Below are positions 16,227 to 31,265 of a stretch of 64,000 nucleotides of DNA, piece after piece. The translations under genes and the position numbers were made by a program. Source of the stretch: Bacteroidales bacterium (GTDB lineage Bacteria > Bacteroidota > Bacteroidia > Bacteroidales > UBA4417); assembly GCA_035403165.1 (NCBI GenBank), contig DAONEP010000007.1, positions 542-64,541 of the forward strand, read 5' to 3'. A model generated the notes under the pieces. The model did no database searches, was not told the DNA's origin, and saw only the letters and a list, made by a program, of their open reading frames with translations. The number at the start of each line of letters is the position of its first letter. Position 1 is the stretch's first letter.

Positions 16227-16697
16227 ATGACAAACATTGAAAATTTCGTTCATGAACTAGCTGAGAAACACGGTCGCACCCGAAATGCCCTAATGCCGAT
16301 ACTTCAGGGTATTGTAGCCCGTGAAAAATTCCTATCGGAAGAAGCCATGATTGCGGTCGCCCGTGAGCTTGACCTTTCGGCAGCAGATGTTTATGGGACT
16401 GCTTCATTTTACACATTTCTGGATACGGTACCCCGAGGGAAGAACATTATCCGGGTATGCAAGACCATTTCGTGTCATATGCATAACAAGGATGAGATCA
16501 TTCAGACGCTGGAGGAACATCTGAAGTGCAAAGTCGGAGAAACAACATCAGATAAGAAATTTACGCTTCTTACTGCAAACTGTCTTGGCTGGTGCCATAA
16601 AGGGCCCGTCATGCTCGTAAATGATGATGTTTATCCCGAGCTTACTCCTCAGAAGGCCCTCGATATCATTCAGGAATACATAAAAAAATCAAATTAA
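16227..16697 (+). CDS. hydC: NuoE-like [2Fe-2S] subunit of [FeFe]-hydrogenase, set 1
   Basis: Thioredoxin-like ferredoxin pattern (CKTISCH .. NCLGWCHKGP). GGAGG RBS at 16216-16220. Confidence 0.85.
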   Translation: MTNIENFVHELAEKHGRTRNALMPILQGIVAREKFLSEEAMIAVARELDLSAADVYGTASFYTFLDTVPRGKNIIRVCKTISCHMHNKDEIIQTLEEHLKCKVGETTSDKKFTLLTANCLGWCHKGPVMLVNDDVYPELTPQKALDIIQEYIKKSN

Positions 16698-16726
16698 GCA
16701 CGTACTACGTATAACAAGATAAAGCT

Positions 16727-17896
16727 ATGGAACAAAAACACCTAAAACGAGTTGATCTGATCTTTGAATGGGACGAAAAGAACACGCCCATCAACGTACT
16801 TGATAAAACCCTGCAAAAAACTCCCGATGCCATAATACTCGAAATGATTGACTCGGGTTTGAAAGGCCGTGGTGGCGCCGGTTTCCCGACAGGATTGAAA
16901 TGGAAATTCACCCGCAACGAAGATTCCGATGTAAAATACGTAGTATGCAATGCCGATGAAGGCGAACCCGGCACGTTCAAAGACCGGGAAATTCTTGACC
17001 GTGTCCCTGAGAAAATTTTCGCCGGAATGGCCATTTGCGGTTATGTTATTGGAGCAAAGGAAGGTTATATTTACCTGCGGGCCGAATATAACTTTCTTCT
17101 CAAATCGTTACAGCAAAAACTGGATAAATTCAACCAGCAATTGAAAGAGCGCCAGGTTGATTTTACGATTTTCATGCGTTCAGGCAGCGGCGCTTATGTG
17201 TGTGGTGAAGAGAGCGCCCTTTTCGAAAGCATGGAAGGAAAACGCGGCGAACCCCGCAACAAGCCTCCCTATCCTACTGTTGCCGGTTATAACAGCAAAC
17301 CAACCGTCATTAACAACGTAGAAACGCTGGTATACACCTGTGAAATCTGTCGCATGGGTGCTGATAAATTTAAAGCGCTTGGAACAAGCGACTCCCGTGG
17401 TTCAAAAGTTTTTTCGGTATCGGGCGATACGACAAAACCCGGGATCTACGAACTTGAGCTGGGCATGCCTTTGCGCGATTTCATCGATGAATTTGGCGAT
17501 GAAGATGCAAAAGCCGTTCAGGTTGGAGGCGCATCCGGCCATTGCGTACCCCGTAAGAAATTCAACGATACCATCATTGGTTTCGAAGGAATTCCCACAG
17601 GAGGCTCGATGATGATCTTCAACTCCACCCGGTCGATGTATAACGTTCTTCATGATTATCTCGAATTTTTCAACGAAGAATCATGCGGCCAATGTACGCC
17701 TTGCCGTGTTGGCTGCCAGCAATTACTCAAAGGCATTGAAGCCGTTAAAAAAGGCGAACGCCCCCCTCAGTACCTCGAGGATCTCAAAAAGCTCACTCTT
17801 ACCATGAAGATTGCTGCCAAATGCGGCCTGGGACAATCGGTTGCCAACCCGTTTATTTCAATAGTTGACAACTTCAGGGAAGAGATCATCTACTAA
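16727..17896 (+). CDS. hydB: NuoF-like flavoprotein subunit, set 1, minimal form
   Basis: Motifs GRGGAGFPTGLKW, GAYVCGEESAL and ESCGQCTPCR. At 389 aa it has no N-terminal 2Fe-2S domain and no C-terminal CxxCxxCxxxCP motifs. Confidence 0.85.
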   Translation: MEQKHLKRVDLIFEWDEKNTPINVLDKTLQKTPDAIILEMIDSGLKGRGGAGFPTGLKWKFTRNEDSDVKYVVCNADEGEPGTFKDREILDRVPEKIFAGMAICGYVIGAKEGYIYLRAEYNFLLKSLQQKLDKFNQQLKERQVDFTIFMRSGSGAYVCGEESALFESMEGKRGEPRNKPPYPTVAGYNSKPTVINNVETLVYTCEICRMGADKFKALGTSDSRGSKVFSVSGDTTKPGIYELELGMPLRDFIDEFGDEDAKAVQVGGASGHCVPRKKFNDTIIGFEGIPTGGSMMIFNSTRSMYNVLHDYLEFFNEESCGQCTPCRVGCQQLLKGIEAVKKGERPPQYLEDLKKLTLTMKIAAKCGLGQSVANPFISIVDNFREEIIY

Positions 17897-17931
17897 TCAT
17901 TCATATCAAAAACGAAAAAGGAGATAATACC

Positions 17932-19725
17932 ATGAGTAAATATATGGTCAATCTTAAGATCAACAATATTCCTATCGCTGTAGAAGAAGGAACCACCATT
18001 CTGGATGCTGCGAAAAGGCTGAATTTCCACATCCCGACACTCTGTAACCATCCTGATCTGAGCGTTGCCGGAAACTGCCGCGTTTGCGTAGTCGAAATAA
18101 AAGGAGCCCGGCTTCTTGCTGCATCGTGCGCCACACCGGTCTCGGAAGGCATGGAGGTTTTTACAAACAGTGAAAAAGTCAGGATTGCCAGGAAACACGT
18201 TATAGAATTGTTGTTATCGGAACATAATGCCGATTGCACCAAATGCTTTAAAAACGGCAATTGCGAATTACAGGACCTGGCTTCCGAATACCGCTATGGC
18301 GACCATGTTTTCATCGACCTGGTTCCGTTTTCAAAAAAGTTCATCGATATTTCATCCCCCTCTATCACCAAAGATACAAGCAAATGTATCCGCTGCCAGC
18401 GTTGCGTACGCACATGCGCTGAACTTCAGGCCGTTAGCGCCCTGGCTGTGATAAACAAAGGCAGCCAACAAACCATCAGCACCTTCCTGAATAAACCGAT
18501 GAACGACGTGGTTTGCACCAACTGCGGACAATGTATCAACCGTTGCCCGACCGGCGCTTTATATGAACGCAACTATATTGAGGATGTCTGGAATGCAATC
18601 TATGATCCTAACAAATTTGTGGTAGTTCAGACTGCTCCTGCAACACGTGTTGCAGTTGGAGAGGATCTAGGCTTTGAACCCGGTAATCGCGTAACGGGGA
18701 AAATGGTTGCCGCCCTCAGGAAAATTGGATTTAATAAAGTGCTGGATACCGACTTCACCGCCGACCTAACCATCATGGAAGAAGGCACTGAATTACTGAC
18801 CCGCCTCAAAAAAGCAATTGTTGACAAGGACGAGACGGTAAAACTTCCTATGATGACATCCTGTTCACCAGGCTGGATAAAATTCCAGGAACACATGTTT
18901 CCGGAATTGCTGCCCAACCTTTCAACCTGCAAATCTCCGCAGCAAATGTTCGGCGCCCTGGCAAAAACTTACTATGCTGATAAGATCAACATAAAAGCCG
19001 AAAACATGGTTGTTGTATCCATCATGCCCTGCACGGCAAAGAAATTCGAGTGCAACCGTCCAGAAATGCGCGATAGCGGGTTCAAAGATGTCGACTATGT
19101 TCTCACTACGCGTGAGCTCGCTATGATGATCAAACAGGCAGGCATTGATTTTGAGAAACTGGAAGATCAGCAATACGACAGTATACTGGGCGAATCAACC
19201 GGAGCTGCCGTAATTTTCGGCGCTACCGGAGGCGTGATGGAAGCCGCCCTTCGAACTGCCTATGAAATCGTTACCGGGAATGAGGTTCCTTTCACAAATC
19301 TCAATATTAAACCGGTGCGCGGCATGGAAGGTGTAAAAGAAGCCTCTATCAAAATTAAAAATGCTAAACCGGAATGGAGTTTTCTTGAAGGCGTTGATGT
19401 AAATGTTGCCGTCGCACATGGTTTGGCCAATGCAAAACGGCTGATGGAAGCAGTCGAGAGCGGAAACACAAATTACCATTTCATTGAAATAATGGGATGC
19501 CCGGGCGGCTGCATCGGCGGTGGCGGACAACCAATTCCTACGTCCCCCGAAATCAGGCGCAAACGTGCTGAAGCGATTTATGAAGAAGACATGGGAATGC
19601 CAATCCGCAAATCGCATGAAAATCCTGAAGTAGCCGAAGTATACCAGGAGTATCTCGGACATCCATGCGGACACCAGTCACACGAACTTCTCCACACCCA
19701 TTATGTGGAACGCAAGAGGTTCTAA
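17932..19725 (+). CDS. hydA: [FeFe]-hydrogenase catalytic subunit, set 1
   Basis: N-terminal 2Fe-2S domain, a H/C cluster (HNADCTKCFKNGNC) and 2x[4Fe-4S]. H-cluster motifs are TSCSPGW (atypical), MPCTAKKFE and EIMGCPGGCIGGGGQP. Confidence 0.9.
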   Translation: MSKYMVNLKINNIPIAVEEGTTILDAAKRLNFHIPTLCNHPDLSVAGNCRVCVVEIKGARLLAASCATPVSEGMEVFTNSEKVRIARKHVIELLLSEHNADCTKCFKNGNCELQDLASEYRYGDHVFIDLVPFSKKFIDISSPSITKDTSKCIRCQRCVRTCAELQAVSALAVINKGSQQTISTFLNKPMNDVVCTNCGQCINRCPTGALYERNYIEDVWNAIYDPNKFVVVQTAPATRVAVGEDLGFEPGNRVTGKMVAALRKIGFNKVLDTDFTADLTIMEEGTELLTRLKKAIVDKDETVKLPMMTSCSPGWIKFQEHMFPELLPNLSTCKSPQQMFGALAKTYYADKINIKAENMVVVSIMPCTAKKFECNRPEMRDSGFKDVDYVLTTRELAMMIKQAGIDFEKLEDQQYDSILGESTGAAVIFGATGGVMEAALRTAYEIVTGNEVPFTNLNIKPVRGMEGVKEASIKIKNAKPEWSFLEGVDVNVAVAHGLANAKRLMEAVESGNTNYHFIEIMGCPGGCIGGGGQPIPTSPEIRRKRAEAIYEEDMGMPIRKSHENPEVAEVYQEYLGHPCGHQSHELLHTHYVERKRF

Positions 19726-19750: not shown

Positions 19751-19773
19751 GGCTGCCAATGGCAGCCTTTTTT
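19751..19773 (+). terminator. Rho-independent terminator after hydA set 1
   Basis: Hairpin ggctgcc-aat-ggcagcc followed by TTTTTT. Confidence 0.8.
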
Positions 19774-19885: not shown

Positions 19886-19916
19886 TTTGTTAATCATTTT
19901 TATCGTAGTAATTTTG
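19886..19916 (+). promoter_or_regulatory. Bacteroidetes-type promoter candidate (-33 TTTG, -7 TAATTTTG)
   Basis: TTTG at 19886-19889 and TAATTTTG at 19909-19916, with 19-bp spacing. It is upstream of the DRTGG gene at 19995. Confidence 0.4.
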
Positions 19917-19994: not shown

Positions 19995-20339
19995 ATGAAG
20001 CTCAGTGAAGTAGTTGAATTTCTAAATGCAAAGGTAGTATGCGGACATGATAACCTGTCGCGCGAAGTCTATCGTGCATTTGCATCCGACCTTATGAGCG
20101 ATGTACTGACCATCAACACACAGAACCTGCTGTTGTTGACCGGCCTTACCAATATCCAGACGATCAGGACTTCTGAAATGGCTGATGTCCTGAACATTGT
20201 TATCGTCAGGAATAAAAAGGCGACTTCCGAAATGATCGAAATAGCCAAAGAAATGGGTATGGTTATCCTCGAATGCGACTACTCGATGTACAAGACTTGC
20301 GGAATCTTGTTCTCCAAGGGATTAAACCCTGTTTATTAA
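19995..20339 (+). CDS. DRTGG domain protein 1
   Basis: 114 aa after trimming to MKLSEVVEFLNAKVVCG. The patterns ..ASDLMSDVL.. and ..LLLLTGLTN.. are typical of DRTGG domains. Confidence 0.7.
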   Translation: MKLSEVVEFLNAKVVCGHDNLSREVYRAFASDLMSDVLTINTQNLLLLTGLTNIQTIRTSEMADVLNIVIVRNKKATSEMIEIAKEMGMVILECDYSMYKTCGILFSKGLNPVY

Positions 20340-20352
20340 TTAACCATGGCCG

Positions 20353-20787
20353 GTGATGCATTTCGAATATTTTATCAACGGTGGTGATTTCAGTAAAGCC
20401 GGACAAGCTTCCAGCCATTTCAAAAAAGTGCTGCAACAACTAAATGTCGCACCTCAGATCATCAAAAGAATTGTCGTTGCGCTGTATGAAGCTGAAGTAA
20501 ATATTGTTGCACACGCGTTTGAAGGTAAAATAATTATTGAATTACAACCAGATTCGGTAGTAATGATGCTGACTGATAAAGGCCCGGGTATCCCTGATAT
20601 TGAAAAAGCCATGGAAATCGGTTATTCCACTGCATCGCCAAAAGTGCGCGAAATGGGATTCGGAGCAGGTATGGGTTTATCCAACATCAAGAACAACGCA
20701 GATCATCTGGAAATATCCAGCACTGTCGGAACCGGAACTACCGTTACAATTAAAGTTAACCTAAAAAGCGATCAATTAACAGACTAA
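20353..20787 (+). CDS. HATPase_c-only protein (RsbW/anti-sigma-type serine kinase-like)
   Basis: N-box-like EAEVNIVAHA, a G1-like DKGPGI and a G2-like GFGAGMGL. No DHp/HisKA domain is present. Confidence 0.7.
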   Translation: MMHFEYFINGGDFSKAGQASSHFKKVLQQLNVAPQIIKRIVVALYEAEVNIVAHAFEGKIIIELQPDSVVMMLTDKGPGIPDIEKAMEIGYSTASPKVREMGFGAGMGLSNIKNNADHLEISSTVGTGTTVTIKVNLKSDQLTD

Positions 20788-20809
20788 TACCTGACGGATC
20801 TCAATCATC

Positions 20810-22147
20810 ATGGCTATAAAGCATTTCCATCATGCGTTAAAAATAAAAACCGAAACCTGTTTCGGTTGTTCGCATTGTATGAAAGTGTGCCCGACCGAAG
20901 CGATCAGGATCCGGAATGGGAAAGCGATCTTTTTTGAGAACCGTTGTGTCGATTGCGGCGAGTGTTTTAAAGCCTGCCCGGTTCAGGCCATTTACATAGA
21001 TCAGGACGATTTCGACCGTATCAATTCATATGAATACCGGGTAGCTCTGATACCAGCGATTTTCATCGGACAGTTCTCCAGGAAATATTCGCTTGAGCAG
21101 ATATATTCCGCAATTTACGCTGCCGGATTCACCCACATTTTCGAAGTTGAACAAAGCACAGCCATCCTGAAGGACCAGATTAACAGGTATGCCGAAGATA
21201 ATCCTTCAAAAAAGCCCCTGATATCCTCCTTTTGTCCGGCTATTATCCGGCTAATCCAGGTACGGTTTCCTTCGCTGGTGGGAAATATCATGTCGCTCAA
21301 ACCGCCTCTTGATATTACTGCATTATACTGCCGCAAGAAATTGACTGATGAAGGCGTAAATCCTGCCCGGATCGGTGTTTTTTACATTACTCCCTGCGCC
21401 GCAAAAATTGCAGCTATTAAAAGCCCTGTGGGTGAAGACTATTCAATGATTACCGGAGTTATCAACATGGATTTCCTTTTCAACCGGGTTTATCGTTTCA
21501 TAAAAAACCTTACAGAAACAGATAAGGAGGCTATTCCGGTCAAACCATTATCGCCGGATGCAATGCGATGGTCGCTTACCCATGGCGAGGCAGATCATAT
21601 CCGGGGACGAAGCCTGGCCGTTGATGAAATCCATAATGTGATCGAATTCCTGGAGAAAGTTGAAAACGACCAGATAAAAAACATTGATTTCCTGGAATTG
21701 CGTGCCTGTGATGAAAGTTGTGCAGGCGGGGTTCTGTCAAATGCAAATCGGTTTCTGGTCAATGAGAGGCTGCGCAGCCCCAAATCAAGAGATACTGAGA
21801 CGGATAATAACTCAGCAAAAACTATTGAAGATTACCGGGAGTACCTTGATCGCCGCATCAACATACAAGAAATCAAACCGCGTTCGATCATGAAACTCGA
21901 CGACAATATGGAAGAAGCGATGCGGAAGATGGGAATGACTAAAGAGATCATGAACCTGCTGCCCGGAACCGACTGCGGAGTATGCGGAGCGCCATCATGC
22001 CAGGCTTTGGCGAATGATATTGTACTGGGCGATGCCGATATCCGTCAATGCATATTTATACAGAGAAGCCGGGAATCAACCGGAGAACTCTCATCACCCG
22101 ACTCTCTCAAATTGATGAAGGGTATTTGGGGAGAAGATAAATTTTAA
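20810..22147 (+). CDS. HydA-like Fe-S protein (2x[4Fe-4S] + degenerate H-domain + C-terminal CxxCxxxxC domain)
   Basis: Motifs CFGCSHCMKVCP and CVDCGECFKACP. H-cluster motif equivalents are SSFCPA, TPCAAK and ACDESCAGG. The C-terminus carries TDCGVCGAPSCQ. Confidence 0.8.
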   Translation: MAIKHFHHALKIKTETCFGCSHCMKVCPTEAIRIRNGKAIFFENRCVDCGECFKACPVQAIYIDQDDFDRINSYEYRVALIPAIFIGQFSRKYSLEQIYSAIYAAGFTHIFEVEQSTAILKDQINRYAEDNPSKKPLISSFCPAIIRLIQVRFPSLVGNIMSLKPPLDITALYCRKKLTDEGVNPARIGVFYITPCAAKIAAIKSPVGEDYSMITGVINMDFLFNRVYRFIKNLTETDKEAIPVKPLSPDAMRWSLTHGEADHIRGRSLAVDEIHNVIEFLEKVENDQIKNIDFLELRACDESCAGGVLSNANRFLVNERLRSPKSRDTETDNNSAKTIEDYREYLDRRINIQEIKPRSIMKLDDNMEEAMRKMGMTKEIMNLLPGTDCGVCGAPSCQALANDIVLGDADIRQCIFIQRSRESTGELSSPDSLKLMKGIWGEDKF

Positions 22148-22163
22148 TTCCAAAAAAACGCAC

Positions 22164-22496
22164 ATGAAAGTTGAAGAAATAATTAAAAAACTCAGCCTTA
22201 ATGCCTTCACCGGCAATAAGGGACTGGATCGTGACGTTCAGGGAGGATACACCTGCGACCTGTTAAGTGATGTAATGGGCCATTCAAAGGCCGGCCAGGT
22301 TTGGATTACTTTACAGACTCATAAAAATGTAATGGCTGTAGCATCACTCCGTGAACTTGCTGCCGTCATTATTGTAAACGGATTGACGCCTAATCCTGAT
22401 ATGCTGGAACAAGCTGAAGAAGAAAATATCCCTGTATTAGGCACCACGGAAAATGCCTTTGATGTTTCGGGAAAATTGTTTAAATTGCTGGGATAA
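22164..22496 (+). CDS. DRTGG domain protein 2
   Basis: 110 aa. Patterns ..GGYTCDLLSDVMG.. and ..VWITLQTHKN.. . Confidence 0.7.
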   Translation: MKVEEIIKKLSLNAFTGNKGLDRDVQGGYTCDLLSDVMGHSKAGQVWITLQTHKNVMAVASLRELAAVIIVNGLTPNPDMLEQAEEENIPVLGTTENAFDVSGKLFKLLG

Positions 22497-22501
22497 TAAA
22501 A

Positions 22502-23242
22502 ATGCCGATTTACAGGGCCGACCTTCACATACATACGGTTTTATCCCCATGCGGCGACCTGGGAATGAGTCCTGTAAATATCGTAACAGATGCCCGCAAT
22601 AAAAATCTGAACATACTCGGAATTACCGACCACAACTCGACGCTTCACTGCGGATTAATTAAAAAACTTGCTTCGGAACACGGGATCATGGTACTGCAGG
22701 GAGCCGAAGTTACAACCAAAGAAGAAATACATTGCCTTACGTTCTTTGAAACATCTGAAACGCTTTCGGCTTTTCAGCAATACCTCGAAGATCATCTGCC
22801 CCATTATCCGAATGATCCAGACAAATTCGGCTACCAGGTAGTTGTTGATTCGGAGGAGGAAATCATTCAAACCATTGAATGGCTTTTGATTTCCGCTATC
22901 GACCAAACCCTCGACGAGGTTGAAGCCACTGTGCATAAACTAGGCGGATTATTTATACCTGCCCACATCGACAAACCCTGCAACAGTCTTATCAGCCAGC
23001 TCGGATTCATTCCGCCAGCCCTGAAAGCTGACGGGTTTGAACTTTCGGCACATGCAAGGCCCGATAGCCTTCAGTTCCTCCTGAACGGTCATAAGCATGT
23101 TTCTTTGCTTCGCAACAGCGATGCCCACTATCTGGAACAGATCGGAACAGGAACCACTGATTTTGACATAGAAGAGCTTTCATTTAGCGAAATCAGAATG
23201 GCGCTGAGAAATGAGTCAAACCGAAGAACCTTCATCGCATGA
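22502..23242 (+). CDS. PHP-domain phosphoesterase
   Basis: ADLHIHTVLSPCGD, ITDHNS and a late DAH motif. Confidence 0.75.
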   Translation: MPIYRADLHIHTVLSPCGDLGMSPVNIVTDARNKNLNILGITDHNSTLHCGLIKKLASEHGIMVLQGAEVTTKEEIHCLTFFETSETLSAFQQYLEDHLPHYPNDPDKFGYQVVVDSEEEIIQTIEWLLISAIDQTLDEVEATVHKLGGLFIPAHIDKPCNSLISQLGFIPPALKADGFELSAHARPDSLQFLLNGHKHVSLLRNSDAHYLEQIGTGTTDFDIEELSFSEIRMALRNESNRRTFIA

Positions 23243-23787
23243 AAGACCTCTCGCTACATATCCTGGATATCATGCAGAACTCGCTGGTTGCCGGCGCTAA
23301 AGAGATCGGCGTGGAAATCACCGAGAATAAAGATGCCGATACCTATTCCATTTCGGTGAAAGATGACGGGAAAGGCATGAGTCCTGAGATGGCCCGCCAG
23401 GTTACCGATCCGTTTTTCACCACGCGGACTACCCGAAAAGTAGGATTGGGTATCCCTTTGCTGAAGGAAAATGCCGAACGCACCGGCGGAAGTTTTGATA
23501 TCATTTCGGCTGAAGGAGTAGGCACAACGATAAATGCCTGTTTCAAACTAAGACATGTCGATCGTCAGCCGCTGGGAGATATTGCCGGCGTCATAGTACT
23601 TACTGCGGCTTCATATCCGGCTGTAAGGTTCAGATACACACATACAACCCGTTTCGGCACTTATACCTTCGACACGAAAGAAGTTGCCGAAATTCTCGGG
23701 GAAACGCCGATTAACGATGCACAAATAATACATTTCCTGAAGGAGATGATCGTTGAAAACCTCGAAAGCATCAATTACACTCCGTAA
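23239..23787 (+). CDS. HATPase_c-only protein 2
   Basis: HILDIMQNSLVAGA, DDGKGM and GLGIPLL. The start overlaps the PHP gene stop (ATGA). Confidence 0.7.
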   Translation: MKDLSLHILDIMQNSLVAGAKEIGVEITENKDADTYSISVKDDGKGMSPEMARQVTDPFFTTRTTRKVGLGIPLLKENAERTGGSFDIISAEGVGTTINACFKLRHVDRQPLGDIAGVIVLTAASYPAVRFRYTHTTRFGTYTFDTKEVAEILGETPINDAQIIHFLKEMIVENLESINYTP

Positions 23788-23843: not shown

Positions 23844-24242
23844 ATGACAAAGATCAAATCACTGAACGACCTGAGGGCAATCAAGGCCAATGTTGAGGCC
23901 AAGATGAACCTCAGAGAACGAAGCGATGCACCCGAAAAATTAGTGCAGATAAAAGTTGCTATGGCAACCTGCGGTATAGCTTCGGGAGCAAAAATCATCA
24001 TGGATTACATGGTGAACGAACTCGATAAACGGCATATACCTGCAGTAGTCAGCCAGACAGGTTGTATGGGATATTGCTATGCCGAGCCTACCATCGAAGT
24101 AACCCTTCCCGGCAAGGAGCCTATTGTTTTCGGTTATGTTACCGAGAAGAAAGCCGACCAGATCATCGAAAAGTATATCATCAACGGTGAGCTTGTTGAA
24201 GGAATCATCCCGGTGAATTACGAAAGCATTGACAATAAGTAA
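23844..24242 (+). CDS. Thioredoxin-like [2Fe-2S] ferredoxin (HydD-like)
   Basis: VAMATCGIASGA .. GCMGYCYAEP. Confidence 0.75.
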   Translation: MTKIKSLNDLRAIKANVEAKMNLRERSDAPEKLVQIKVAMATCGIASGAKIIMDYMVNELDKRHIPAVVSQTGCMGYCYAEPTIEVTLPGKEPIVFGYVTEKKADQIIEKYIINGELVEGIIPVNYESIDNK

Positions 24243-24260: not shown

Positions 24261-26054
24261 ATGGCAACATTTAAAATGCATTTGCTTGTTTGTGGCGGTA
24301 CTGGCTGTAGGGCTTCAGAAAGCGCAACCTTGTTCCAAAACCTTCGTGCAGGAATCATCCAGAAAGGATTGGAAAACGATGTCCAGGTGATTACGACCGG
24401 CTGTTTTGGGTTTTGCGAAAAAGGGCCTATTGTAAAAGTGTTACCCGACAACACGTTTTATACGATGGTCAAGCCCGAAGATGCAAACGAAATTATTGAA
24501 GAACATATTATAAAAGGCCGCAAGGTTCAGCGTTTGCTTTATGTAAATCCGGTTACCACTGAAAAAGTTTCCGATTCCAAACACATGGGTTTTTACCGGA
24601 AACAACTGCGTATAGCTCTTCGCAACTGCGGTTTCATTGATCCTGAAAATATTGAGGAAAGTATTGCACGCGAAGGTTATGCTGCACTCGGCAAATGCCT
24701 TACCGAAATGACCCCTGAACAGGTCATCGAAATGATAAAAAAGAGCGGTTTACGCGGACGCGGCGGCGGAGGTTTTCCCACTGGTCTGAAATGGGAAATC
24801 ACACGCGCGTCGAAAGCCGACCAAAAATACGTCGTATGTAATGCTGACGAAGGAGACCCCGGCGCTTTCATGGACCGTTCCATCCTGGAAGGCGACCCCC
24901 ATTCGGTGATCGAAGCTATGGCTATCTGCGGATACTGTATCCAGGCTACCAAAGGGCTGGTCTATATCCGTGCAGAATATCCCCTGGCCATCGAAAGGTT
25001 AAAAACCGCCATTAAACAAGCGCGCGAATATGGCCTGTTAGGAGAAGACATCATGGGCTCCGGTTTCAATTTTGACATTGAACTGCGTTACGGAGCCGGA
25101 GCATTTGTCTGCGGAGAAGAAACCGCCCTGATCCATTCTATGGAAGGTTTCCGCGGCGAGCCTACCGTTAAACCTCCTTTCCCCTCAGTATCGGGTTATC
25201 TGAAAAAGCCTACCAACGTCAATAATGTTGAAACCTTTGCCAACATTCCCGTAATTATCAATCGTGGAGCCGAATGGTTTTCCAGCATCGGGACCGAAAA
25301 ATCAAAAGGAACAAAAGTATTTGCCCTTGCCGGAAAAATCAACAATGTTGGCCTGATCGAAGTTCCAATGGGCATCACATTACGTGAAGTGATATACGAA
25401 ATCGGCGGCGGTATAAAAGACGGCAAAAAATTCAAAGCCGTTCAAACCGGCGGCCCTTCGGGCGGATGCCTCACCGAAAAGCACCTGGACACCCCAATCG
25501 ATTATGATAACCTGATTGCAGCCGGTTCAATGATGGGCTCAGGCGGTATGATTGTTATGGATGAAGATGACTGTATGGTTTCAGTCGCTAAATTTTATCT
25601 TGACTTTACCGTTGAAGAATCATGCGGAAAATGTTCTCCGTGCCGTATAGGAAATAAACGCCTGAATGAAATTCTCGAGAAGATATGTAAAGGGAACGGC
25701 ACCATGGAAGATATCGCGCTGCTCCGTAACCTCAGCAGTGTGGTAAAGGATACAGCCCTTTGCGGATTAGGACAAACATCACCCAATCCGGTTCTTTCAA
25801 CTCTCGATAATTTTTACGATGAATACCTGGCTCACATCGTTGATAAAAAATGTCCGAGCGGAAGGTGCAAAGCGTTGCTTCAGTATTTTATCGATCCCGA
25901 AAACTGTGTAGGATGCACTGCCTGCGCCCGTAATTGCCCTGTAAATGCAATTTCCGGTGAACGCAAAGGCGTTCATGTAATTGACTCCGCTACCTGTATC
26001 AAGTGCGGTGCCTGTATGGAAAAATGCAAGTTCAATGCAGTTTATATTAAATAA
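24261..26054 (+). CDS. hydB: NuoF-like flavoprotein subunit, set 2, full-length
   Basis: N-terminal 2Fe-2S domain (CGGTGC .. GCFGFCEKGP). Core motifs GRGGGGFPTGLKW and ESCGKCSPCR. Two C-terminal ferredoxin motifs (CVGCTACARNCP and CIKCGACMEKC). Confidence 0.9.
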   Translation: MATFKMHLLVCGGTGCRASESATLFQNLRAGIIQKGLENDVQVITTGCFGFCEKGPIVKVLPDNTFYTMVKPEDANEIIEEHIIKGRKVQRLLYVNPVTTEKVSDSKHMGFYRKQLRIALRNCGFIDPENIEESIAREGYAALGKCLTEMTPEQVIEMIKKSGLRGRGGGGFPTGLKWEITRASKADQKYVVCNADEGDPGAFMDRSILEGDPHSVIEAMAICGYCIQATKGLVYIRAEYPLAIERLKTAIKQAREYGLLGEDIMGSGFNFDIELRYGAGAFVCGEETALIHSMEGFRGEPTVKPPFPSVSGYLKKPTNVNNVETFANIPVIINRGAEWFSSIGTEKSKGTKVFALAGKINNVGLIEVPMGITLREVIYEIGGGIKDGKKFKAVQTGGPSGGCLTEKHLDTPIDYDNLIAAGSMMGSGGMIVMDEDDCMVSVAKFYLDFTVEESCGKCSPCRIGNKRLNEILEKICKGNGTMEDIALLRNLSSVVKDTALCGLGQTSPNPVLSTLDNFYDEYLAHIVDKKCPSGRCKALLQYFIDPENCVGCTACARNCPVNAISGERKGVHVIDSATCIKCGACMEKCKFNAVYIK

Positions 26055-26072
26055 CCAGTGGGAGAACGAAAC

Positions 26073-27842
26073 ATGGAAATGATCAATTTAACAATAGATA
26101 ATAAAAAGGTTCAGGTCAAAAAAGGTACCACCGTTTTGGATGCTGCCAAATCCGTTGGAATTAACATCCCTACCCTGTGCTATCTTCACCTTCACGACCT
26201 CGAAATCACCAACAAACCTGCAGGTTGCCGTATCTGCGTTGTTGAAGTTAAAGGCCGTCGTAACCTCGCTCCTGCCTGCGTTACCGAATGTACCGAAGGC
26301 ATGGAAGTGAATACACACAACATCCGTGTGTTGAATGCCCGTAAAACCGTGATGGAGCTCATTCTCAGCGACCATCCCACCGACTGCCTCGTATGCGCCA
26401 AAAGCGGCAACTGCGAATTGCAATCGCTTGCACACGAATTAGGGATCCGTCAGATACATTACGAAGGGGAACAATCGCACTATCGCAAGGACACCTCACC
26501 TTCCATCATCCGTGATGTGGATAAATGTATTATGTGCCGTCGTTGCGAAATGATGTGCAACGAAGTGCAGACAGTAGGCGTTCTTACGGCAGTAAACCGC
26601 GGATTTACATCAGTGGTGGCTCCCGCCTTCGAAATGAACCTCGATCACAGCGTATGTACATACTGCGGACAATGCGTTGCCGTATGCCCGACAGGAGCGC
26701 TCACCGAAGTTGACCACACCAATAGTGTTATCCGGGCTTTGGCCGATCCAACCAAGACGGTCATCGTGCAAACGGCTCCGGCTGTGCGTGCCGCATTGGG
26801 CGAAGAATTCGGCCTGGAACCCGGCACCCTGGTAACAGGAAAAATGGCTGCTGCTCTCAGGAGACTTGGATTTGATTATGTATTCGATACCGATTTTGCT
26901 GCCGACCTCACCATAATGGAAGAAGGCACAGAATTGCTCGACCGGTTAACGCGCCACTTAAATGGAGATAAAGATGTGAAGCTTCCTATCCTCACATCAT
27001 GCTGCCCGGGCTGGGTTAACTTCTTCGAACATCAGTTCCCCGACATGATCGATATCCCGTCGACAGCCCGTTCACCTCAGCAAATGTTCGGTTCCATTGC
27101 AAAGACATTCTTTGCTGAAAAATTGGGCATTAAAAGGGAAAATATGGTTGTAGTGTCCATCATGCCATGTCTGGCTAAGAAATTTGAATGCTCACGGGAT
27201 GAATTTAAGGTTGATGGCAATCCCGATGTAGACTTTTCACTTTCGACGCGTGAACTGGCCAATTTCATCAAGCAATCGAACATAGATTTCATCTCTCTCG
27301 AGGATGAAGATTTCGACCGTCCATTGGGAGAATCAACCGGCGCTGCTGTCATTTTCGGCGCTACCGGTGGTGTTATTGAAGCCGCTACCCGTACGGCCTA
27401 TGAAGTTTACACCGGTAAAAAACTTGAAAAAGTTGATTTCGAACAATTGCGCGGAATGGAATGGATCAGGAGCGCGACCGTAGACTTCGACGGCTTGCCC
27501 ATCAAAATCGGAATTGCACACGGACTGGGCAATGCCCGCAAACTCCTTGAACAAATTCGTGAAGGCAAAGCTGATTTCCATGCAATCGAAATCATGGCCT
27601 GCCCCGGTGGCTGCATCGGCGGCGGCGGTCAACCGCTTCATCATGGTGATTCATCCATCCTGAAAGCCCGTACAGCCGCTATCTATCGTGAAGATGAGAG
27701 CAAAGTCATCCGGAAATCGCACGAGAATCCCTATATCATTCAACTGTACGAAGAGTTCCTTGGCAAACCATGCAGCCATAAATCGCATCAGTTGTTGCAT
27801 ACCCATTATTTCGACAAGAGTAAACCAGTCGAAATTGAATAA
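26073..27842 (+). CDS. hydA: [FeFe]-hydrogenase catalytic subunit, set 2
   Basis: Canonical motifs TSCCPGW, MPCLAKKFE and EIMACPGGCIGGGGQP. The start is set at ATG 26073; the track ORF starts at GTG 26058. Confidence 0.9.
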   Translation: MEMINLTIDNKKVQVKKGTTVLDAAKSVGINIPTLCYLHLHDLEITNKPAGCRICVVEVKGRRNLAPACVTECTEGMEVNTHNIRVLNARKTVMELILSDHPTDCLVCAKSGNCELQSLAHELGIRQIHYEGEQSHYRKDTSPSIIRDVDKCIMCRRCEMMCNEVQTVGVLTAVNRGFTSVVAPAFEMNLDHSVCTYCGQCVAVCPTGALTEVDHTNSVIRALADPTKTVIVQTAPAVRAALGEEFGLEPGTLVTGKMAAALRRLGFDYVFDTDFAADLTIMEEGTELLDRLTRHLNGDKDVKLPILTSCCPGWVNFFEHQFPDMIDIPSTARSPQQMFGSIAKTFFAEKLGIKRENMVVVSIMPCLAKKFECSRDEFKVDGNPDVDFSLSTRELANFIKQSNIDFISLEDEDFDRPLGESTGAAVIFGATGGVIEAATRTAYEVYTGKKLEKVDFEQLRGMEWIRSATVDFDGLPIKIGIAHGLGNARKLLEQIREGKADFHAIEIMACPGGCIGGGGQPLHHGDSSILKARTAAIYREDESKVIRKSHENPYIIQLYEEFLGKPCSHKSHQLLHTHYFDKSKPVEIE

Positions 27843-28369: not shown

Positions 28370-28421
28370 ACCGTTCTCTTCTAAAGATCATTCCGGGTTA
28401 AACCGGATGATTAATAAAGCA

Positions 28422-28452
28422 AAACTGCCTCTCAACAAGGCAGTTTTTTTTT
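28422..28452 (+). terminator. Rho-independent terminator after hydrogenase operon 2
   Basis: Hairpin aaactgcc-tctcaaca-aggcagttt followed by a T-run. Confidence 0.75.
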
Positions 28453-28560
28453 GCCAAATGCATAATAACCAACAATAAAGTTATAGTTTGAAGAATATTT
28501 TTTAGTCATAGGAAAGACGCTTTGCTTATATTTGCTCATTATCATAAAAAAGTTTCCATT

Positions 28561-30285: not shown

Positions 30286-30307
30286 AGGTTCCCATACGAG
30301 AAAAAAG

Positions 30308-31262: not shown

Positions 31263-31265
31263 AAC

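What the first reader, a model, noticed from the sequence alone, without database searches (positions are those of the whole stretch)
19995..23787. Six-gene kinase/phosphatase/Fe-S module embedded at the head of the hydrogenase operon, with no DNA-binding output
The gene order is DRTGG - HATPase_c-only - HydA-like Fe-S protein - DRTGG - PHP phosphoesterase - HATPase_c-only. Gaps are 5-22 bp and one junction is an ATGA overlap. hydD-hydB-hydA-hydC follow on the same strand, and no terminator is visible until 28422.

The composition is two GHKL-type ATPases lacking a DHp domain, one phosphoesterase, two small DRTGG proteins and one redox-cofactor protein. It reads like a partner-switching or Ser/Thr phosphorylation circuit in which the DRTGG proteins could be the phospho-substrates and the Fe-S protein the H2 or redox sensor. 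No HTH or sigma-factor gene is present, so the output may be post-translational control of the hydrogenase itself. Gene sets of this kind are seen near hydrogenases in thermophilic Firmicutes and Thermotogae, but to my knowledge their mechanism has not been worked out.
Basis: partly seen in the sequence, partly recalled or inferred. Interest (0 to 1): 0.7.

Follow-up and report, generated by a model that had tools for sequence, protein, structure and literature searches.

The report
Hydrogen-sensor gene cassette heading a hydrogenase operon
The six genes are real and form the widely conserved but biochemically uncharacterised accessory cassette of a "group D" putative hydrogen-sensing [FeFe] hydrogenase, and gene fusions in other genomes now point to which of these proteins dock onto the sensor.

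Summary
Six co-oriented genes (19995-23787) open a 10-gene unit that ends in hydD-hydB-hydA-hydC. The unit is bounded by terminators at 19751 and 28421.

The "HydA-like Fe-S protein" is a recognised class: a group D (M2e) putative sensory [FeFe] hydrogenase, like TamHydS. Published work already places such genes upstream of bifurcating hydrogenases, next to a "histidine kinase-like ATPase". As of 2026 its partners and signalling mechanism were still reported as unknown.

What this analysis adds:
- In 160 related loci from Bacteroidota, Bacillota, WOR-3, Muiribacteriota and others, the order DRTGG1 - SpoIIAB-like kinase - HydS - DRTGG2 - PHP - (CA-like ATPase) is almost invariant.
- The cassette splits into two separable sub-modules, [D1-K1-HydS] and [D2-PHP-K2].
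- K2 travels with hydD/hydB/hydA.
- 11 of 150 HydS cluster representatives are natural fusions: HydS-DRTGG2, DRTGG1-HydS and K1-HydS. DRTGG2 sits where group C sensors carry PAS.

The ATP-binding motifs of both GHKL proteins and the metal site of PHP are conserved. No DNA-binding gene is conserved nearby.

A partner-switching-like, ATP-dependent H2 signalling circuit is the best reading, but phosphorylation, the substrate and the output are inferred only. The window comes from Bacteroidales, not from a thermophile.

The parts
16227..16697 (+). hydC' (NuoE-like 2Fe-2S subunit) of a separate upstream hydrogenase operon
   Evidence: Pfam 2Fe-2S_thioredx, 1.4e-46; NuoE/HoxE-type NCBIfam hits.
16727..17896 (+). 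hydB' (short NuoF-like subunit, 389 aa, lacking the N-terminal 2Fe-2S and C-terminal 2x[4Fe-4S] domains)
   Evidence: Only Complex1_51K and NADH_4Fe-4S domains were found. A set with the same short HydB' is conserved upstream of the cassette in L001-L004, L008-L010 and L042, and on the opposite strand in L025.
17932..19725 (+). hydA' ([FeFe] hydrogenase, group A)
   Evidence: NCBIfam FeFe_hydrog_A6 scores 890 bits against a cut-off of 765. It is 51% identical to the downstream HydA. Its L1 motif is TSCSPGW, as in A. woodii HydA1, PDB 7q4v.
19751..19767 (+). Intrinsic-terminator-like hairpin ending the upstream operon
   Evidence: GGCTGCCAATGGCAGCC followed by TTTTTT; 7 pairs, 6 of them G-C.
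19886..19916 (+). Bacteroidetes-type promoter-like motif (TTTG-N19-TAATTTTG), about 80 bp upstream of the first gene
   Evidence: Pattern match. This is weak on its own: 5 matches in the window against 3.0 expected by chance.
19995..20339 (+). D1: DRTGG-domain protein paired with K1
   Evidence: Pfam DRTGG and PucR-like hits. Present with HydS in 73 of 76 loci, with a median gap of 2 bp to K1. Fused to K1 in L051 and L061, and to the N-terminus of HydS in P0189 and P0225. Invariant or nearly invariant residues: D32, S35, T49, Q55, R58, T59.
20353..20787 (+). K1: SpoIIAB/RsbW-like GHKL ATPase / serine-kinase-like protein
   Evidence: HATPase_c_2 at 5.2e-12. NCBIfam spIIAB at 1.1e-16, below its cut-off. 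The best PDB match is anti-sigma F factor SpoIIAB (1til, 1l0o), colinear over residues 29-137. The N-box (E46, N50, H54), G1 (D75xGPG) and G2 (G102-L109) are at least 95% conserved. Fused to HydS in P0149.
20810..22147 (+). HydS: group D (M2e) putative sensory [FeFe] hydrogenase
   Evidence: Domains are 2x Fer4 + Fe_hyd_lg_C + PF04060. H-cluster cysteines are C142 (SSFCP), C196 (TPCAAK), and C300 and C304 (RACDESCAGG). The C-terminal Cx2Cx4Cx16C motif uses C389, C392, C397 and C414. All are invariant or nearly so across the family. There is no PAS domain. These features match the published description of M2e/TamHydS.
22164..22496 (+). D2: DRTGG-domain protein paired with PHP
   Evidence: Pfam DRTGG and Hpr_kinase_N. 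The AF2 model has pLDDT 91. It matches the DRTGG domains of CBS-pyrophosphatase (3l2b, TM 0.73) and AF1212 (2ioj, TM 0.80), and the HprK/P N-terminal domain. D2 is always present or absent together with PHP (71 of 78 loci), with a median gap of 0. It is fused to the C-terminus of HydS in 8 cluster representatives. S35, L34, T49 and N55 are invariant.
22502..23242 (+). PHP-family metal-dependent phosphoesterase
   Evidence: Pfam PHP and PHP_C. Residues D7, H9, H11, D43, H44, N45, E69, E74 and H77 are at least 95% conserved, and there is an unusual conserved LSPCGD motif containing C17. The nearest relatives are the PHP domains of TrlF and CehA/McbA and of Endonuclease Q.
23239..23787 (+). K2: histidine-kinase CA-domain-like ATPase with a ~75-aa C-terminal alpha/beta extension and no DHp
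   Evidence: HATPase_c at 1.9e-15. N14, S15, D42xGxG46 and G69xG71 are conserved. The AF2 model has pLDDT 88.9. Foldseek matches the CA domains of WalK and ZraS over about 100 columns, and MutL, PMS2 and TopoVI-B over about 200 columns. It overlaps PHP by ATGA; the median PHP-K2 gap in 40 loci is -4. K2 lies next to hydD in 50 loci and between hydC and hydD in Bacillota (C. thermocellum Cthe_0339).
23844..24242 (+). hydD: small thioredoxin-like ferredoxin-fold protein with an incomplete cysteine set
   Evidence: Weak 2Fe-2S_thioredx and fdxn_Clost hits. Only three semi-conserved Cys (C43, C74, C78); the fourth ligand position is S or A.
24261..26054 (+). hydB: full-length NuoF-like subunit (2Fe-2S + FMN/NADH + 4Fe-4S + 2x[4Fe-4S])
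   Evidence: Pfam and NCBIfam hits.
26058..27842 (+). hydA: catalytic [FeFe] hydrogenase, group A
   Evidence: NCBIfam FeFe_hydrog_A6 scores 919 bits against a cut-off of 765. Its L1 motif is TSCCPGW.
27884..28369 (+). hydC: NuoE/HoxE-like 2Fe-2S subunit
   Evidence: Pfam 2Fe-2S_thioredx at 3.3e-50.
28421..28447 (+). Terminator-like hairpin ending the 10-gene unit
   Evidence: 10-pair stem followed by a T run.

Best explanation
The six genes are the signalling cassette of a group D (M2e) putative H2-sensing [FeFe] hydrogenase, HydS. They are transcribed together with the HydABC-type hydrogenase that they most likely regulate.

The cassette has two separable sub-modules. One is a sensor sub-module: DRTGG-1, the SpoIIAB-like GHKL kinase K1, and HydS. 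The other is a relay sub-module: DRTGG-2, the PHP phosphoesterase, and the CA-domain-like ATPase K2.

Proposed mechanism:
1. HydS binds or slowly turns over H2 at its H-cluster.
2. D1, K1 and D2 dock directly on HydS. D2 occupies the position after the C-terminal [4Fe-4S] domain, where group C sensors carry a PAS domain.
3. The H2-dependent state of HydS changes what K1 does with ATP, either serine phosphorylation or partner choice as in SpoIIAB/RsbW/RsbT.
4. The signal passes to D2-PHP-K2, with PHP resetting the phosphorylated state.
5. K2 is genomically tied to hydD/hydB/hydA and acts on the hydrogenase complex or on its expression.

Shown: gene content, intact ATP and metal sites, near-invariant synteny across phyla, the two sub-modules, and the fusions.

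Inferred: H2 sensing in vivo, any phosphorylation, which protein is phosphorylated (the invariant Ser35 of the DRTGG proteins is a candidate), and the output.
For: **HydS is a group D member.** Domains and cysteine motifs are. They match the published definition and the properties of TamHydS: low turnover, high H2 affinity and H2-induced structural change (PMC8163306, PMC13104023).

**Synteny.** The order D1-K1-S-D2-P is conserved in nearly all of 80 genome loci from Bacteroidota, Bacillota, WOR-3, Muiribacteriota, Spirochaetota and Syntrophorhabdus. Counts:
- D1 present in 73 of 76 loci
- K1 in 74 of 76
- D2 and PHP in 71 of 78, always together
- K2 in 54 of 68
- a HydA-type gene within 10 kb in 34 of 48
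- median gaps of -4 to 11 bp within the cassette

**K2-centred reciprocal scan.** This gives the same D2-P-K2 trio. It also finds stand-alone D2-P-K2 operons and the permuted order D2-P-K2-D1-K1-S.

**Rosetta-stone fusions.** 8 HydS-D2-type, 2 D1-type-HydS and 1 K1-HydS among 150 cluster representatives. D1-K1 is fused in L051 and L061.

**K1.** It aligns colinearly with SpoIIAB, and E46, N50, H54 and the G1 and G2 boxes are at least 95% conserved.

**K2 and PHP.** K2's ATP-binding residues are conserved and its model is confident. The PHP metal ligands are conserved.

**DRTGG proteins.** D2 has the DRTGG fold. Ser35 is invariant in both DRTGG paralogues and lies in a loop.

**K2 location.** K2 lies between hydC and hydD in Bacillota, including C. 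thermocellum Cthe_0338-0342.

**Precedent.** Group C sensory hydrogenases sit next to Ser/Thr kinases and phosphatases, and deletions have regulatory phenotypes (PMC5707799).
Against: - There is no biochemical or genetic datum on any of the five accessory proteins; literature searches found none.
- The DRTGG Ser35 motif is retained in loci that lack K1 and PHP nearby (L060, L078). It may therefore be structural or an HydS-contact motif rather than a phosphosite.
- The closest relatives of the PHP protein are nucleases and phosphodiesterases, not protein phosphatases.
- The full-length K2 model also resembles GHL clamp ATPases such as MutL and TopoVI-B, so K2 may not be a kinase.
- TamHydS's C-terminal cluster is not reduced by H2. 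Signal transfer through that domain, where D2 is fused, cannot be a simple redox relay.
- 14 of 48 fully flanked loci have no hydrogenase within 10 kb, and the sub-modules can be unlinked. Control may therefore act in trans or on other targets.
- Genetic work on the group C sensor locus (hfs) shows transcript-level effects, on adhE.
Confidence: 0.45

Rival explanations
1. The sensor and cassette are the same, but the output is transcriptional and acts in trans. K1 (SpoIIAB/RsbW-like) or K2 would sequester or phosphorylate a regulator or sigma factor encoded elsewhere, and this would set expression of the hyd operon and of fermentation genes.
For: - K1 is most similar to an anti-sigma factor kinase.
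- The cassette and its sub-modules often stand alone among housekeeping genes.
- Deleting hfsA or hfsB, genes of the group C sensor locus, changes adhE transcript levels.
- Land et al. report an AraC-type regulator next to TamHydS.
Against: - No DNA-binding or sigma gene is conserved beside the cassette in 160 loci from several phyla.
- K2 is embedded inside the hydrogenase structural genes, between hydC and hydD, in Bacillota.
- Whether the source genome encodes any sigma factor that K1 could bind was not examined here.
Confidence: 0.25
2. Nucleotide- or metabolite-based regulation rather than protein phosphorylation. The DRTGG domains would act as ligand-responsive dimerisation modules, as in the regulatory insert of CBS-pyrophosphatases. 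PHP would hydrolyse a nucleotide or phosphodiester signal. The GHKL proteins would act as ATP-driven clamps or switches.
For: - D2's best structural matches are the regulatory DRTGG domain of CBS-PPase and the HprK/P N-terminal domain.
- The PHP protein is nearest to phosphodiesterase and nuclease PHP domains.
- The full-length K2 model resembles MutL and TopoVI-B GHL ATPases.
- Ser35 is kept where no kinase is nearby.
Against: - No nucleotide cyclase or synthetase is part of the cassette.
- K1 is clearly of the protein-kinase (SpoIIAB) type.
- K2's ATP-lid sequence (PFFTTRxxxxVGLG) is of histidine-kinase type.
Confidence: 0.12
3. Not a regulator. HydS would be a low-activity catalytic or electron-input subunit, and the small proteins would be assembly, repair or maturation factors of the HydABC complex.
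For: - TamHydS does catalyse reversible H+/H2 conversion, at low rates.
- The genes are co-transcribed with the structural genes.
- GHKL ATPases include chaperones.
Against: - The family lacks the proton-transfer cysteine of catalytic enzymes: the motif is SSxCP.
- The composition is kinase-like + phosphoesterase + small adaptor domains, which is typical of signalling.
- The cassette occurs without any adjacent hydrogenase in 14 of 48 loci, and other HydABC sets in the same loci lack it.
- From my own knowledge, purified HydABC(D) enzymes (T. maritima, A. woodii, C. subterraneus) contain no such subunits.
Confidence: 0.08

Closest known systems
Group D (M2e) putative sensory [FeFe] hydrogenase, e.g. 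TamHydS of Thermoanaerobacter mathranii; loci TTE0887, Cthe_0335, Csac_1857, Athe_1292
   Same: - Same domain plan: 2x[4Fe-4S] + H-domain + C-terminal Cx2Cx4Cx16C, with no PAS.
- No proton-relay cysteine, and Thr in place of Met353.
- Encoded upstream of a trimeric HydABC with a 'histidine kinase-like ATPase' in between.
   Different: - The host is a Bacteroidales organism.
- The gene order ends K2-hydD-hydB-hydA-hydC instead of hydC-K2-hydD-hydB-hydA.
- A second hydrogenase with a short HydB' lies directly upstream.
- I found no paper describing the accessory DRTGG and PHP proteins or the fusions.
Group C (M2f) sensory [FeFe] hydrogenase systems (R. albus HydS; Thermoanaerobacterium hfsABCD; T. 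maritima TM1420-1422)
   Same: - H-cluster sensor with a C-terminal [4Fe-4S] domain.
- Next to a Ser/Thr-kinase-type GHKL protein and a phosphatase.
- Encoded near bifurcating hydrogenases.
- A regulatory phenotype is shown genetically for hfs.
   Different: - Group C has a PAS domain fused after the C-terminal cluster. Here a separate DRTGG protein follows HydS, and in some genomes it is fused at that position.
- From my own knowledge, the group C phosphatase is of the PP2C type. Here it is a PHP protein.
Partner-switching modules (SpoIIAA/SpoIIAB/SpoIIE; RsbR/S-RsbT-RsbU-RsbV-RsbW-SigB)
   Same: - K1 is a SpoIIAB-sized, SpoIIAB-like GHKL protein with identical N-box residues E46, N50 and H54.
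- The gene order small adaptor - kinase - target resembles spoIIAA-spoIIAB-sigF.
- Two adaptors, two GHKL proteins and one phosphatase mirror the two-tier sigB cascade.
   Different: - No STAS domain, no PP2C and no sigma factor. DRTGG and PHP take those places.
- K2 is of the histidine-kinase CA type, not RsbW-like.
[NiFe] regulatory hydrogenase HoxBC-HoxJ-HoxA of Cupriavidus necator
   Same: A low-activity hydrogenase is thought to form a complex with a GHKL kinase and report H2 (background cited).
   Different: - Unrelated metal centre.
- HoxJ is a full histidine kinase with PAS and DHp, and HoxA is a DNA-binding response regulator. None of these is present here.
DRTGG domains of CBS-pyrophosphatase regulatory inserts and the N-terminal domain of HPr kinase/phosphorylase
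   Same: Same fold: TM 0.73-0.80. They are regulatory or oligomerisation modules attached to phosphoryl-transfer enzymes.
   Different: - Here the domains are stand-alone ~110-aa proteins.
- They carry a family-specific signature D32-L-[LM]-S35-[D]-V plus T49 in place of the name-giving DRTGG motif.

Membership tests
Group D (M2e) [FeFe] hydrogenase (HydS) | H-domain with the four H-cluster cysteines (motifs L1, L2, L3) | tested here: met
   C142 (SSFCP), C196 (TPCAAK), and C300 and C304 (RACDESCAGG) are invariant or nearly invariant in a 26-sequence family alignment. Fe_hyd_lg_C scores 4.5e-21.
Group D (M2e) [FeFe] hydrogenase (HydS) | [quoted passage not shown] | tested here: met
   Fer4 dicluster hits over residues 8-62. 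C17, C23, C27, C46, C49, C52 and C56 are invariant.
Group D (M2e) [FeFe] hydrogenase (HydS) | C-terminal Cx2Cx4Cx16C motif and no PAS domain | tested here: met
   C389-x2-C392-x4-C397-x16-C414 is invariant. PF04060 scores 5.6e-12, and there is no PAS hit.
Group D (M2e) [FeFe] hydrogenase (HydS) | Proton-relay Cys (CpI C299) absent; Met353 replaced by Ser/Thr | tested here: met
   Phe141 precedes the ligand Cys (the family consensus is SSxCP). Thr195 is present in the TPC motif. The criterion is taken from PMC8163306.
Group D (M2e) [FeFe] hydrogenase (HydS) | Binds an H-cluster, low turnover, high H2 affinity | not testable with these tools
   Biochemical data exist only for TamHydS.
Partner-switching module (SpoIIAB/RsbW kinase + STAS antagonist + PP2C phosphatase) | SpoIIAB/RsbW-type GHKL serine kinase | tested here: inconclusive
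   For K1, HATPase_c_2 is above its Pfam cut-off. The spIIAB NCBIfam model scores 61 bits against a cut-off of 135. The best PDB hit is SpoIIAB, with N-box, G1 and G2 conserved. Kinase activity was not tested.
Partner-switching module (SpoIIAB/RsbW kinase + STAS antagonist + PP2C phosphatase) | STAS-domain antagonist that is phosphorylated | tested here: not met
   No STAS hit in any cassette protein. The small proteins have the DRTGG fold.
Partner-switching module (SpoIIAB/RsbW kinase + STAS antagonist + PP2C phosphatase) | PP2C (SpoIIE/RsbU) phosphatase and a sigma-factor or equivalent output partner | tested here: not met
   The only phosphoesterase is of the PHP family. No sigma or other conserved output gene is found in 160 loci.
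Two-component system | Histidine kinase with DHp/HisKA domain plus receiver-domain response regulator | tested here: not met
   K1 and K2 have only the ATPase domain. The hybrid kinase at 28522-30285 lies beyond the terminator, and no comparable gene follows hydC in close relatives.
Group C (M2f) sensory hydrogenase system | PAS domain fused C-terminal to the sensor's extra [4Fe-4S] domain | tested here: not met
   No PAS domain in HydS. A DRTGG domain occupies that position in the fused relatives.
DRTGG domain family (PF07085) | Sequence match and alpha/beta DRTGG fold | tested here: met
   D2 scores 31.0 bits against a cut-off of 25.2. D1 scores 23.5 bits, just below it. D1 and D2 are homologous (E = 5e-12). 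The D2 model matches 3l2b, 2ioj and 1ko7. The literal D-R-T-G-G residues are not conserved.
PHP phosphoesterase family (PF02811) | HxH, DH, E and H metal-binding motifs | tested here: met
   PHP scores 27.7 bits against a cut-off of 26.4, and PHP_C 27.8 against 21.3. D7, H9, H11, D43, H44, E69 and H77 are at least 95% conserved, and the C-terminal IPAH and SDAH motifs are 80% or more conserved. The substrate is unknown.

The most novel reading that the evidence does not exclude
The cassette is a previously undescribed type of partner-switching / phospho-relay circuit. DRTGG proteins would replace STAS, a PHP enzyme would replace PP2C, and two DHp-less GHKL proteins would act in two tiers. A PAS-less [FeFe] H2 sensor (HydS) would hold D1, K1 and D2 in one complex. 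Through D2-PHP-K2 it would switch the electron-bifurcating hydrogenase itself on, off or in direction, post-translationally via HydD/HydB. This would give fermenters a direct H2-pressure feedback on bifurcation without any transcription factor.
Probability: 0.22. Interest if true: 0.85.

Novelty: new member of a known kind. Interest (0 to 1): 0.6.

Why it matters
H2 partial pressure decides how anaerobic fermenters and syntrophs split electrons between H2, ethanol, lactate and other products. How bacteria sense H2 with [FeFe]-type sensors is still unresolved. For group D sensors, which lack a PAS domain, the most recent biochemical paper (2026) states that the interaction partners and the signalling mechanism are unknown.

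The comparative data here name concrete candidates:
- D1, K1 and D2 as direct partners of HydS.
- D2-PHP-K2 as a separable relay tied to hydD/hydB/hydA.
- Precise residues to mutate: Ser35 and Thr49 of the DRTGG proteins, the K1 N-box, PHP His9/His11, and Cys17.

The data also show that the system is widespread in Bacteroidota from gut, sludge and sediment, not only in thermophilic Firmicutes. If the output turns out to be post-translational control of an electron-bifurcating enzyme, that would be a new regulatory principle and a handle for engineering H2 and ethanol yields.

Tried and rejected
- **Genome scan with a 26-sequence HydS alignment.** I repeated it with 10 sequences.
- **Iterated family HMMs.** The first version timed out in MAFFT. 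The second let paralogues merge: D1 with D2, K1 with K2, and HydS with HydA. I replaced it with best-scoring-family assignment.
- **Literature searches.** 'DRTGG' plus 'hydrogenase' gave two irrelevant papers. Searches for M2e + PHP + kinase, for locus tags and for HydS + kinase + phosphatase found no study of the accessory proteins.
- **Thermotoga.** I suspected that TM1420-1423 was the same cassette. The literature classes TM1420-1422 as group C (M2f), so I rejected this.
- **Conserved transcription factor or alternative target.** I scanned immediate upstream and downstream neighbours in 30 proteins from loci with and without an adjacent hydrogenase. They were unrelated genes: Germane, SPOR, HydG-like radical SAM, GltD-like, ValRS, helicase, MatE, FolD and PanC.
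- **Known RNA element in the 5' leader.** Rfam found only two tRNAs in the whole window.
- **Aligning the Ser35 motif to solved DRTGG domains.** A profile search of PDB gave only a marginal HprK hit. Whether Ser35 is generic to DRTGG domains therefore remains open.
- **The TSCSPGW L1 motif of the upstream HydA'.** It looked at first like a lost cluster ligand. It is shared by 34 of 58 HydA in the loci and by the solved, active A. woodii HydA1, so I rejected it as an anomaly.
- **Multimer modelling of pairs.** This was not possible with the tools.

Full report
**1. Observation**

- D1: 19995-20339, 114 aa. The ATG start gives the length typical of homologues.
- K1: 20353-20787, 144 aa.
- The Fe-S protein: 20810-22147, 445 aa.
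- D2: 22164-22496, 110 aa.
- PHP: 22502-23242, 246 aa.
- K2: 23239-23787, 182 aa.

The junctions are 13, 22, 16 and 5 bp, plus a 4-bp ATGA overlap.

Pfam confirms the domain calls.
- D1: DRTGG, 23.5 bits against a cut-off of 25.2, plus a PucR-like hit.
- K1: HATPase_c_2 and HATPase_c.
- Fe-S protein: two Fer4 motifs + Fe_hyd_lg_C + PF04060 'FeS'.
- D2: DRTGG, 31 bits, plus Hpr_kinase_N.
- PHP protein: PHP + PHP_C.
- K2: HATPase_c.
- No HisKA/DHp, receiver, HTH or sigma domain is present.

hydD, hydB, hydA and hydC follow. A terminator-like hairpin closes the unit at 28421-28447.

Two things were missed.
- A second trimeric hydrogenase set lies directly upstream: hydC' (16227-16697), a short hydB' of 389 aa (16727-17896) and hydA' (17932-19725). 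It ends in a strong terminator (19751-19767). A Bacteroidetes-type promoter motif follows at 19886-19916 (weak statistically).
- The six genes therefore head their own 10-gene unit, but the cassette sits between two hydrogenases.

**2. What the central protein is**

The 445-aa protein has these features:
- eight N-terminal cysteines forming two [4Fe-4S] motifs;
- the four H-cluster cysteines, in SSFC142P, TPC196AAK and RAC300DESC304AGG;
- a C-terminal C389-x2-C392-x4-C397-x16-C414 motif;
- no PAS domain;
- no cysteine at the proton-relay position;
- Thr where catalytic enzymes have Met353.

This is the published definition of the M2e subclass, or group D, of [FeFe] hydrogenases. Its only characterised member is TamHydS of Thermoanaerobacter mathranii. 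TamHydS shows low turnover, high H2 affinity and CO tolerance, and it is 'hypothesised' to be a sensor (PMC8163306).

Earlier comparative papers already listed M2e genes upstream of bifurcating hydrogenases: TTE0887, Cthe_0335, Csac_1857, Athe_1292 and Teth39_1463. [quoted passage not shown] In C. thermocellum, Cthe_0339 inside the hydrogenase operon is the 'histidine kinase' (PMC3990059).

[quoted passage not shown] It states that identification of the interaction partners is still needed (PMC13104023).

The core of the finding is therefore a known kind of locus whose mechanism is an acknowledged open question. I found no paper that discusses the DRTGG or PHP proteins of these loci.

**3. Source organism**

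The closest HydS relatives (58-79% identity) are from Bacteroidales, Bacteroidota and Lentimicrobium metagenome-assembled genomes. The best genome locus is L001, a Bacteroidales MAG. It shares the whole arrangement, including the upstream hydC'B'A' and further upstream genes. The window is thus from a mesophilic-type Bacteroidales organism, not a thermophilic Firmicute or Thermotoga. Thermotoga's TM1420-1422 sensor is classed as group C, with PAS.

**4. Comparative genomics, HydS-centred**

I kept 80 loci with 10-kb flanks. L001-L044 are mostly Bacteroidota. L045-L080 are Bacillota/Clostridia, WOR-3, Muiribacteriota, Spirochaetaceae and Syntrophorhabdus.

I called ORFs and assigned them to ten family HMMs seeded from the window proteins. 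The order D1-K1-HydS-D2-PHP is almost invariant.

Counts restricted to loci with enough flank:

| Component | Loci with it |
|---|---|
| D1 | 73 of 76 (plus two D1-K1 fusions counted as K1) |
| K1 | 74 of 76 |
| D2 | 71 of 78 |
| PHP | 71 of 78, always together with D2 |
| Small K2 | 54 of 68 |
| HydA-type gene within 10 kb | 34 of 48 |

Median gaps are 2 bp (D1-K1), 11 (K1-HydS), 2.5 (HydS-D2), 0 (D2-PHP) and -4 (PHP-K2).

The tail of the operon differs by phylum. In Bacteroidota it is K2-hydD-hydB-hydA-hydC. In Bacillota it is hydC-K2-hydD-hydB-hydA.

Variants are informative.
- D1-K1-HydS alone: L017, L018, L027, L029.
- D1-HydS without K1: Anaerosolibacter, L060 and L078.
- K1-HydS without D1: L068.
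- Permuted order D2-PHP-K2-D1-K1-HydS: L024, L026, L031.
- K2 staying with hydC/hydD/hydB/hydA on the opposite strand: L062.

Other HydABC sets in the same loci, including the window's upstream set, lack K2 and hydD.

**5. Comparative genomics, K2-centred**

K2 homologues are very numerous and uniformly about 181 aa: at least 7949 clusters with E <= 1e-10. A metagenome scan seeded with K2 gave 80 further loci. Counts:
- PHP lies just upstream in 54 of 68 loci.
- D2 lies within 1.8 kb in 51 of 57.
- hydD lies directly downstream in 37 of 67.
- HydS lies within 9 kb in 21 of 29 well-flanked loci.

Several loci carry a stand-alone D2-PHP-K2 (or PHP-D2-K2) operon among housekeeping genes such as MatE, FolD and PanC. 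Seven show D2-PHP-K2 in front of D1-K1-HydS.

The cassette therefore consists of two separable sub-modules, [D1-K1-HydS] and [D2-PHP-K2]. The occupancy is nested: K2 occurs less often than D2+PHP, which occur less often than D1+K1. K2 is the element most tightly tied to hydD and the hydrogenase.

**6. Rosetta-stone fusions**

Among the 150 best 50%-identity cluster representatives of the HydS family, 11 are fusions.
- Eight carry a D2-type DRTGG domain directly after the C-terminal [4Fe-4S] domain: P0135, P0142, P0203, P0206, P0212, P0227, P0258, P0259.
- Two carry a D1-type DRTGG domain at the N-terminus: P0189, P0225.
- One carries K1 at the N-terminus: P0149.

D1 and K1 are fused in L051 and L061. 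Each fusion joins immediate gene neighbours in the same order as in the operon.

This is the strongest evidence obtainable here that D1, K1 and D2 act in physical contact with HydS. It also shows that D2 takes the place that PAS occupies in group C sensors.

**7. The accessory proteins**

- **K1.** It aligns colinearly (residues 29-137) with the anti-sigma F factor and serine kinase SpoIIAB, its best PDB match. It keeps E46, N50 and H54, the G1 box D75xGPGI and the G2 box G102FGAGMGL at 95% or more across phyla.
- **K2.** It is related to NtrB/ZraS/WalK-type catalytic (CA) domains. N14, S15, D42xGxG46 and G69xG71 are conserved. The AF2 model is confident (pLDDT 88.9, pTM 0.84). It shows a disordered ATP lid and a C-terminal alpha/beta extension. 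Foldseek matches CA domains over about 100 columns (rmsd 2.5-3 Å). It matches MutL, PMS2 and TopoVI-B N-terminal regions over about 200 columns, but at rmsd about 8 Å. K2 may therefore be a kinase or a clamp-type ATPase.
- **D1 and D2.** They are paralogues (24% identity, E = 5e-12). The D2 model (pLDDT 91.1) has the DRTGG fold of the CBS-pyrophosphatase regulatory insert (3l2b, TM 0.73), of AF1212 (2ioj, TM 0.80) and of the HprK/P N-terminal domain. Both paralogues share a signature D32-L-[LM]-S35-[D]-V plus T49. Ser35 is invariant: 75 of 75 in D1 and 72 of 72 in D2. In the model it lies in a lower-confidence loop after strand 29-32. That makes Ser35 a candidate phosphosite. However, it is also kept in D1 of loci with no kinase or phosphatase nearby.
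- **PHP.** It keeps its metal ligands and has an unusual conserved Cys17 in LSPCGD. Its nearest relatives are the PHP domains of TrlF/Ppl-type proteins, CehA/McbA and Endonuclease Q. These are phosphodiesterases rather than known protein phosphatases.
- **HydD.** It has only three semi-conserved cysteines. It may be an adaptor rather than an electron carrier.

Public annotations of D2 homologues read 'serine kinase', 'predicted transcriptional regulator' or 'DRTGG domain-containing protein'. K2 homologues are named 'ATP-binding protein' or 'anti-sigma regulatory factor'. The first two names given to D2 are not supported by its fold.

**8. Output**

No DNA-binding or sigma-factor gene is conserved upstream or downstream of the cassette in any phylum. 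Rfam finds no known RNA element in the leader. The hybrid histidine kinase at 28522-30285 lies beyond the terminator. Beside it are an IS200-like transposase gene and a small ORF with a GIY-YIG-like N-terminal sequence. No comparable gene follows hydC in close relatives.

Whether the output is post-translational remains inference.
- In favour: K2 is embedded among the structural genes and adjacent to hydD.
- Against: the sub-modules can be unlinked from any hydrogenase, and deletions in the group C sensor locus (hfsA, hfsB) change transcript levels.

**9. Most likely mechanism**

HydS reports H2 (or the redox poise set by H2) through a conformational change. [quoted passage not shown]

D1, K1 and D2 sit on HydS. 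K1, like SpoIIAB/RsbW/RsbT, uses ATP to phosphorylate a small partner or to switch partners. D2-PHP-K2 relays and resets the signal. K2 acts at HydD/HydABC.

The composition is two small adaptors, two DHp-less GHKL proteins and one phosphoesterase. The gene order is adaptor-kinase-target. Both parallel the spoIIA and sigB operons, with DRTGG in place of STAS and PHP in place of PP2C.

| Claim | Probability |
|---|---|
| This is the group D sensor cassette | about 0.9 |
| It is regulatory rather than catalytic or assembly-related | 0.7-0.8 |
| The specific two-tier ATP-dependent relay acting on HydABC | about 0.45 as the leading model |
| DRTGG proteins as phospho-substrates | about 0.3 |

**10. 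Novelty and interest**

The locus is a new (Bacteroidales) member of a known kind of locus: group D HydS upstream of HydABC. The kind itself is uncharacterised. The accessory DRTGG, PHP and GHKL set, its two-sub-module structure and the fusions are, as far as the searchable literature shows, undescribed. They turn the open question 'who are HydS's partners?' into a short list of direct experiments.

That justifies moderate-to-high interest (0.6). The claim that this is a new signalling mechanism stays in the 'novel case' with a probability of about 0.2.

Noticed in passing
window 16227-19725: A second trimeric [FeFe] hydrogenase operon (hydC'-hydB'-hydA') lies directly upstream. Its HydB' is only 389 aa, with no N-terminal 2Fe-2S and no C-terminal 2x[4Fe-4S] domain. 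From my own knowledge, this resembles the beta subunits reported for non-bifurcating NADH-dependent hydrogenases. The pair 'short-HydB hydrogenase + sensor cassette + full HydABC' is conserved in L001-L004, L008-L010, L042, L085, L091 and L111.
   Followed up: partly
window 17932-19725 vs 26058-27842: The two HydA paralogues (51% identical) differ in the L1 H-cluster motif: TSCSPGW upstream and TSCCPGW downstream. TSCSPGW is also found in 34 of 58 HydA in related loci and in the solved A. woodii HydA1 (7q4v). It is therefore a normal variant, but its functional meaning is not clear to me.
   Followed up: partly
window 23844-24242 (hydD) and homologues in L001-L080: HydD has only three semi-conserved cysteines (C43, C74, C78). 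The fourth ligand position of the thioredoxin-like [2Fe-2S] fold is Ser or Ala, and some homologues lose further cysteines. It may not bind a normal cluster. It is almost always adjacent to K2 (50 loci).
   Followed up: partly
window 28522-31372: Beyond the operon terminator lie a hybrid histidine kinase (HisKA + HATPase + two receiver domains, 28522-30285), an IS200-like Y1 transposase gene (30409-30960, - strand), a small ORF with a GIY-YIG-like N-terminal sequence (30978-31262, - strand; judged by eye, not scanned) and a tRNA (31299-31372, - strand). In close relatives, differently sized genes on the opposite strand follow hydC, which suggests a local insertion.
   Followed up: partly
window 1-4000: G+C is 0.32-0.34 in the first 4 kb, against 0.43-0.48 in the rest of the window. 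This may be foreign or otherwise distinct DNA.
   Followed up: no
L036-L040, L130 (Prolixibacteraceae/Sunxiuqinia-type loci), just upstream of D1 on the opposite strand: A conserved, divergently transcribed pair lies here: a 309-aa protein, which has PAS domains in L036 (the only copy scanned), and a ~393-aa protein. It could be a lineage-specific additional regulator of the cassette.
   Followed up: partly
L073 7954-11037 and L075 (same position): In two Bacillota MAGs the cassette, which lacks K2 and an adjacent hydrogenase, is followed by a protein of about 1030 aa. In L073 it is a 7TM-GAF-GGDEF-EAL protein; the L075 counterpart was not scanned. This is a possible link to c-di-GMP signalling, or it may be coincidence.
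   Followed up: no
L054 2499-3890; same position in L066 (not scanned): In the Muiribacteriota locus L054, a radical-SAM + BATS protein lies immediately upstream of D1 (gap 25 bp). It is a HydG/HydE-like maturase candidate. L066 has a 463-aa ORF at the same position (gap 41 bp).
   Followed up: no
homologues of window 22164-22496 and 23239-23787 in public databases: D2 homologues are variously annotated 'serine kinase', 'serine kinase of HPr protein' or 'predicted transcriptional regulator'. K2 homologues are annotated 'anti-sigma regulatory factor' or 'signal transduction histidine kinase'. The kinase and regulator names given to D2 are not supported by its domain content. This may explain confusing descriptions of these loci in the literature.
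   Followed up: partly
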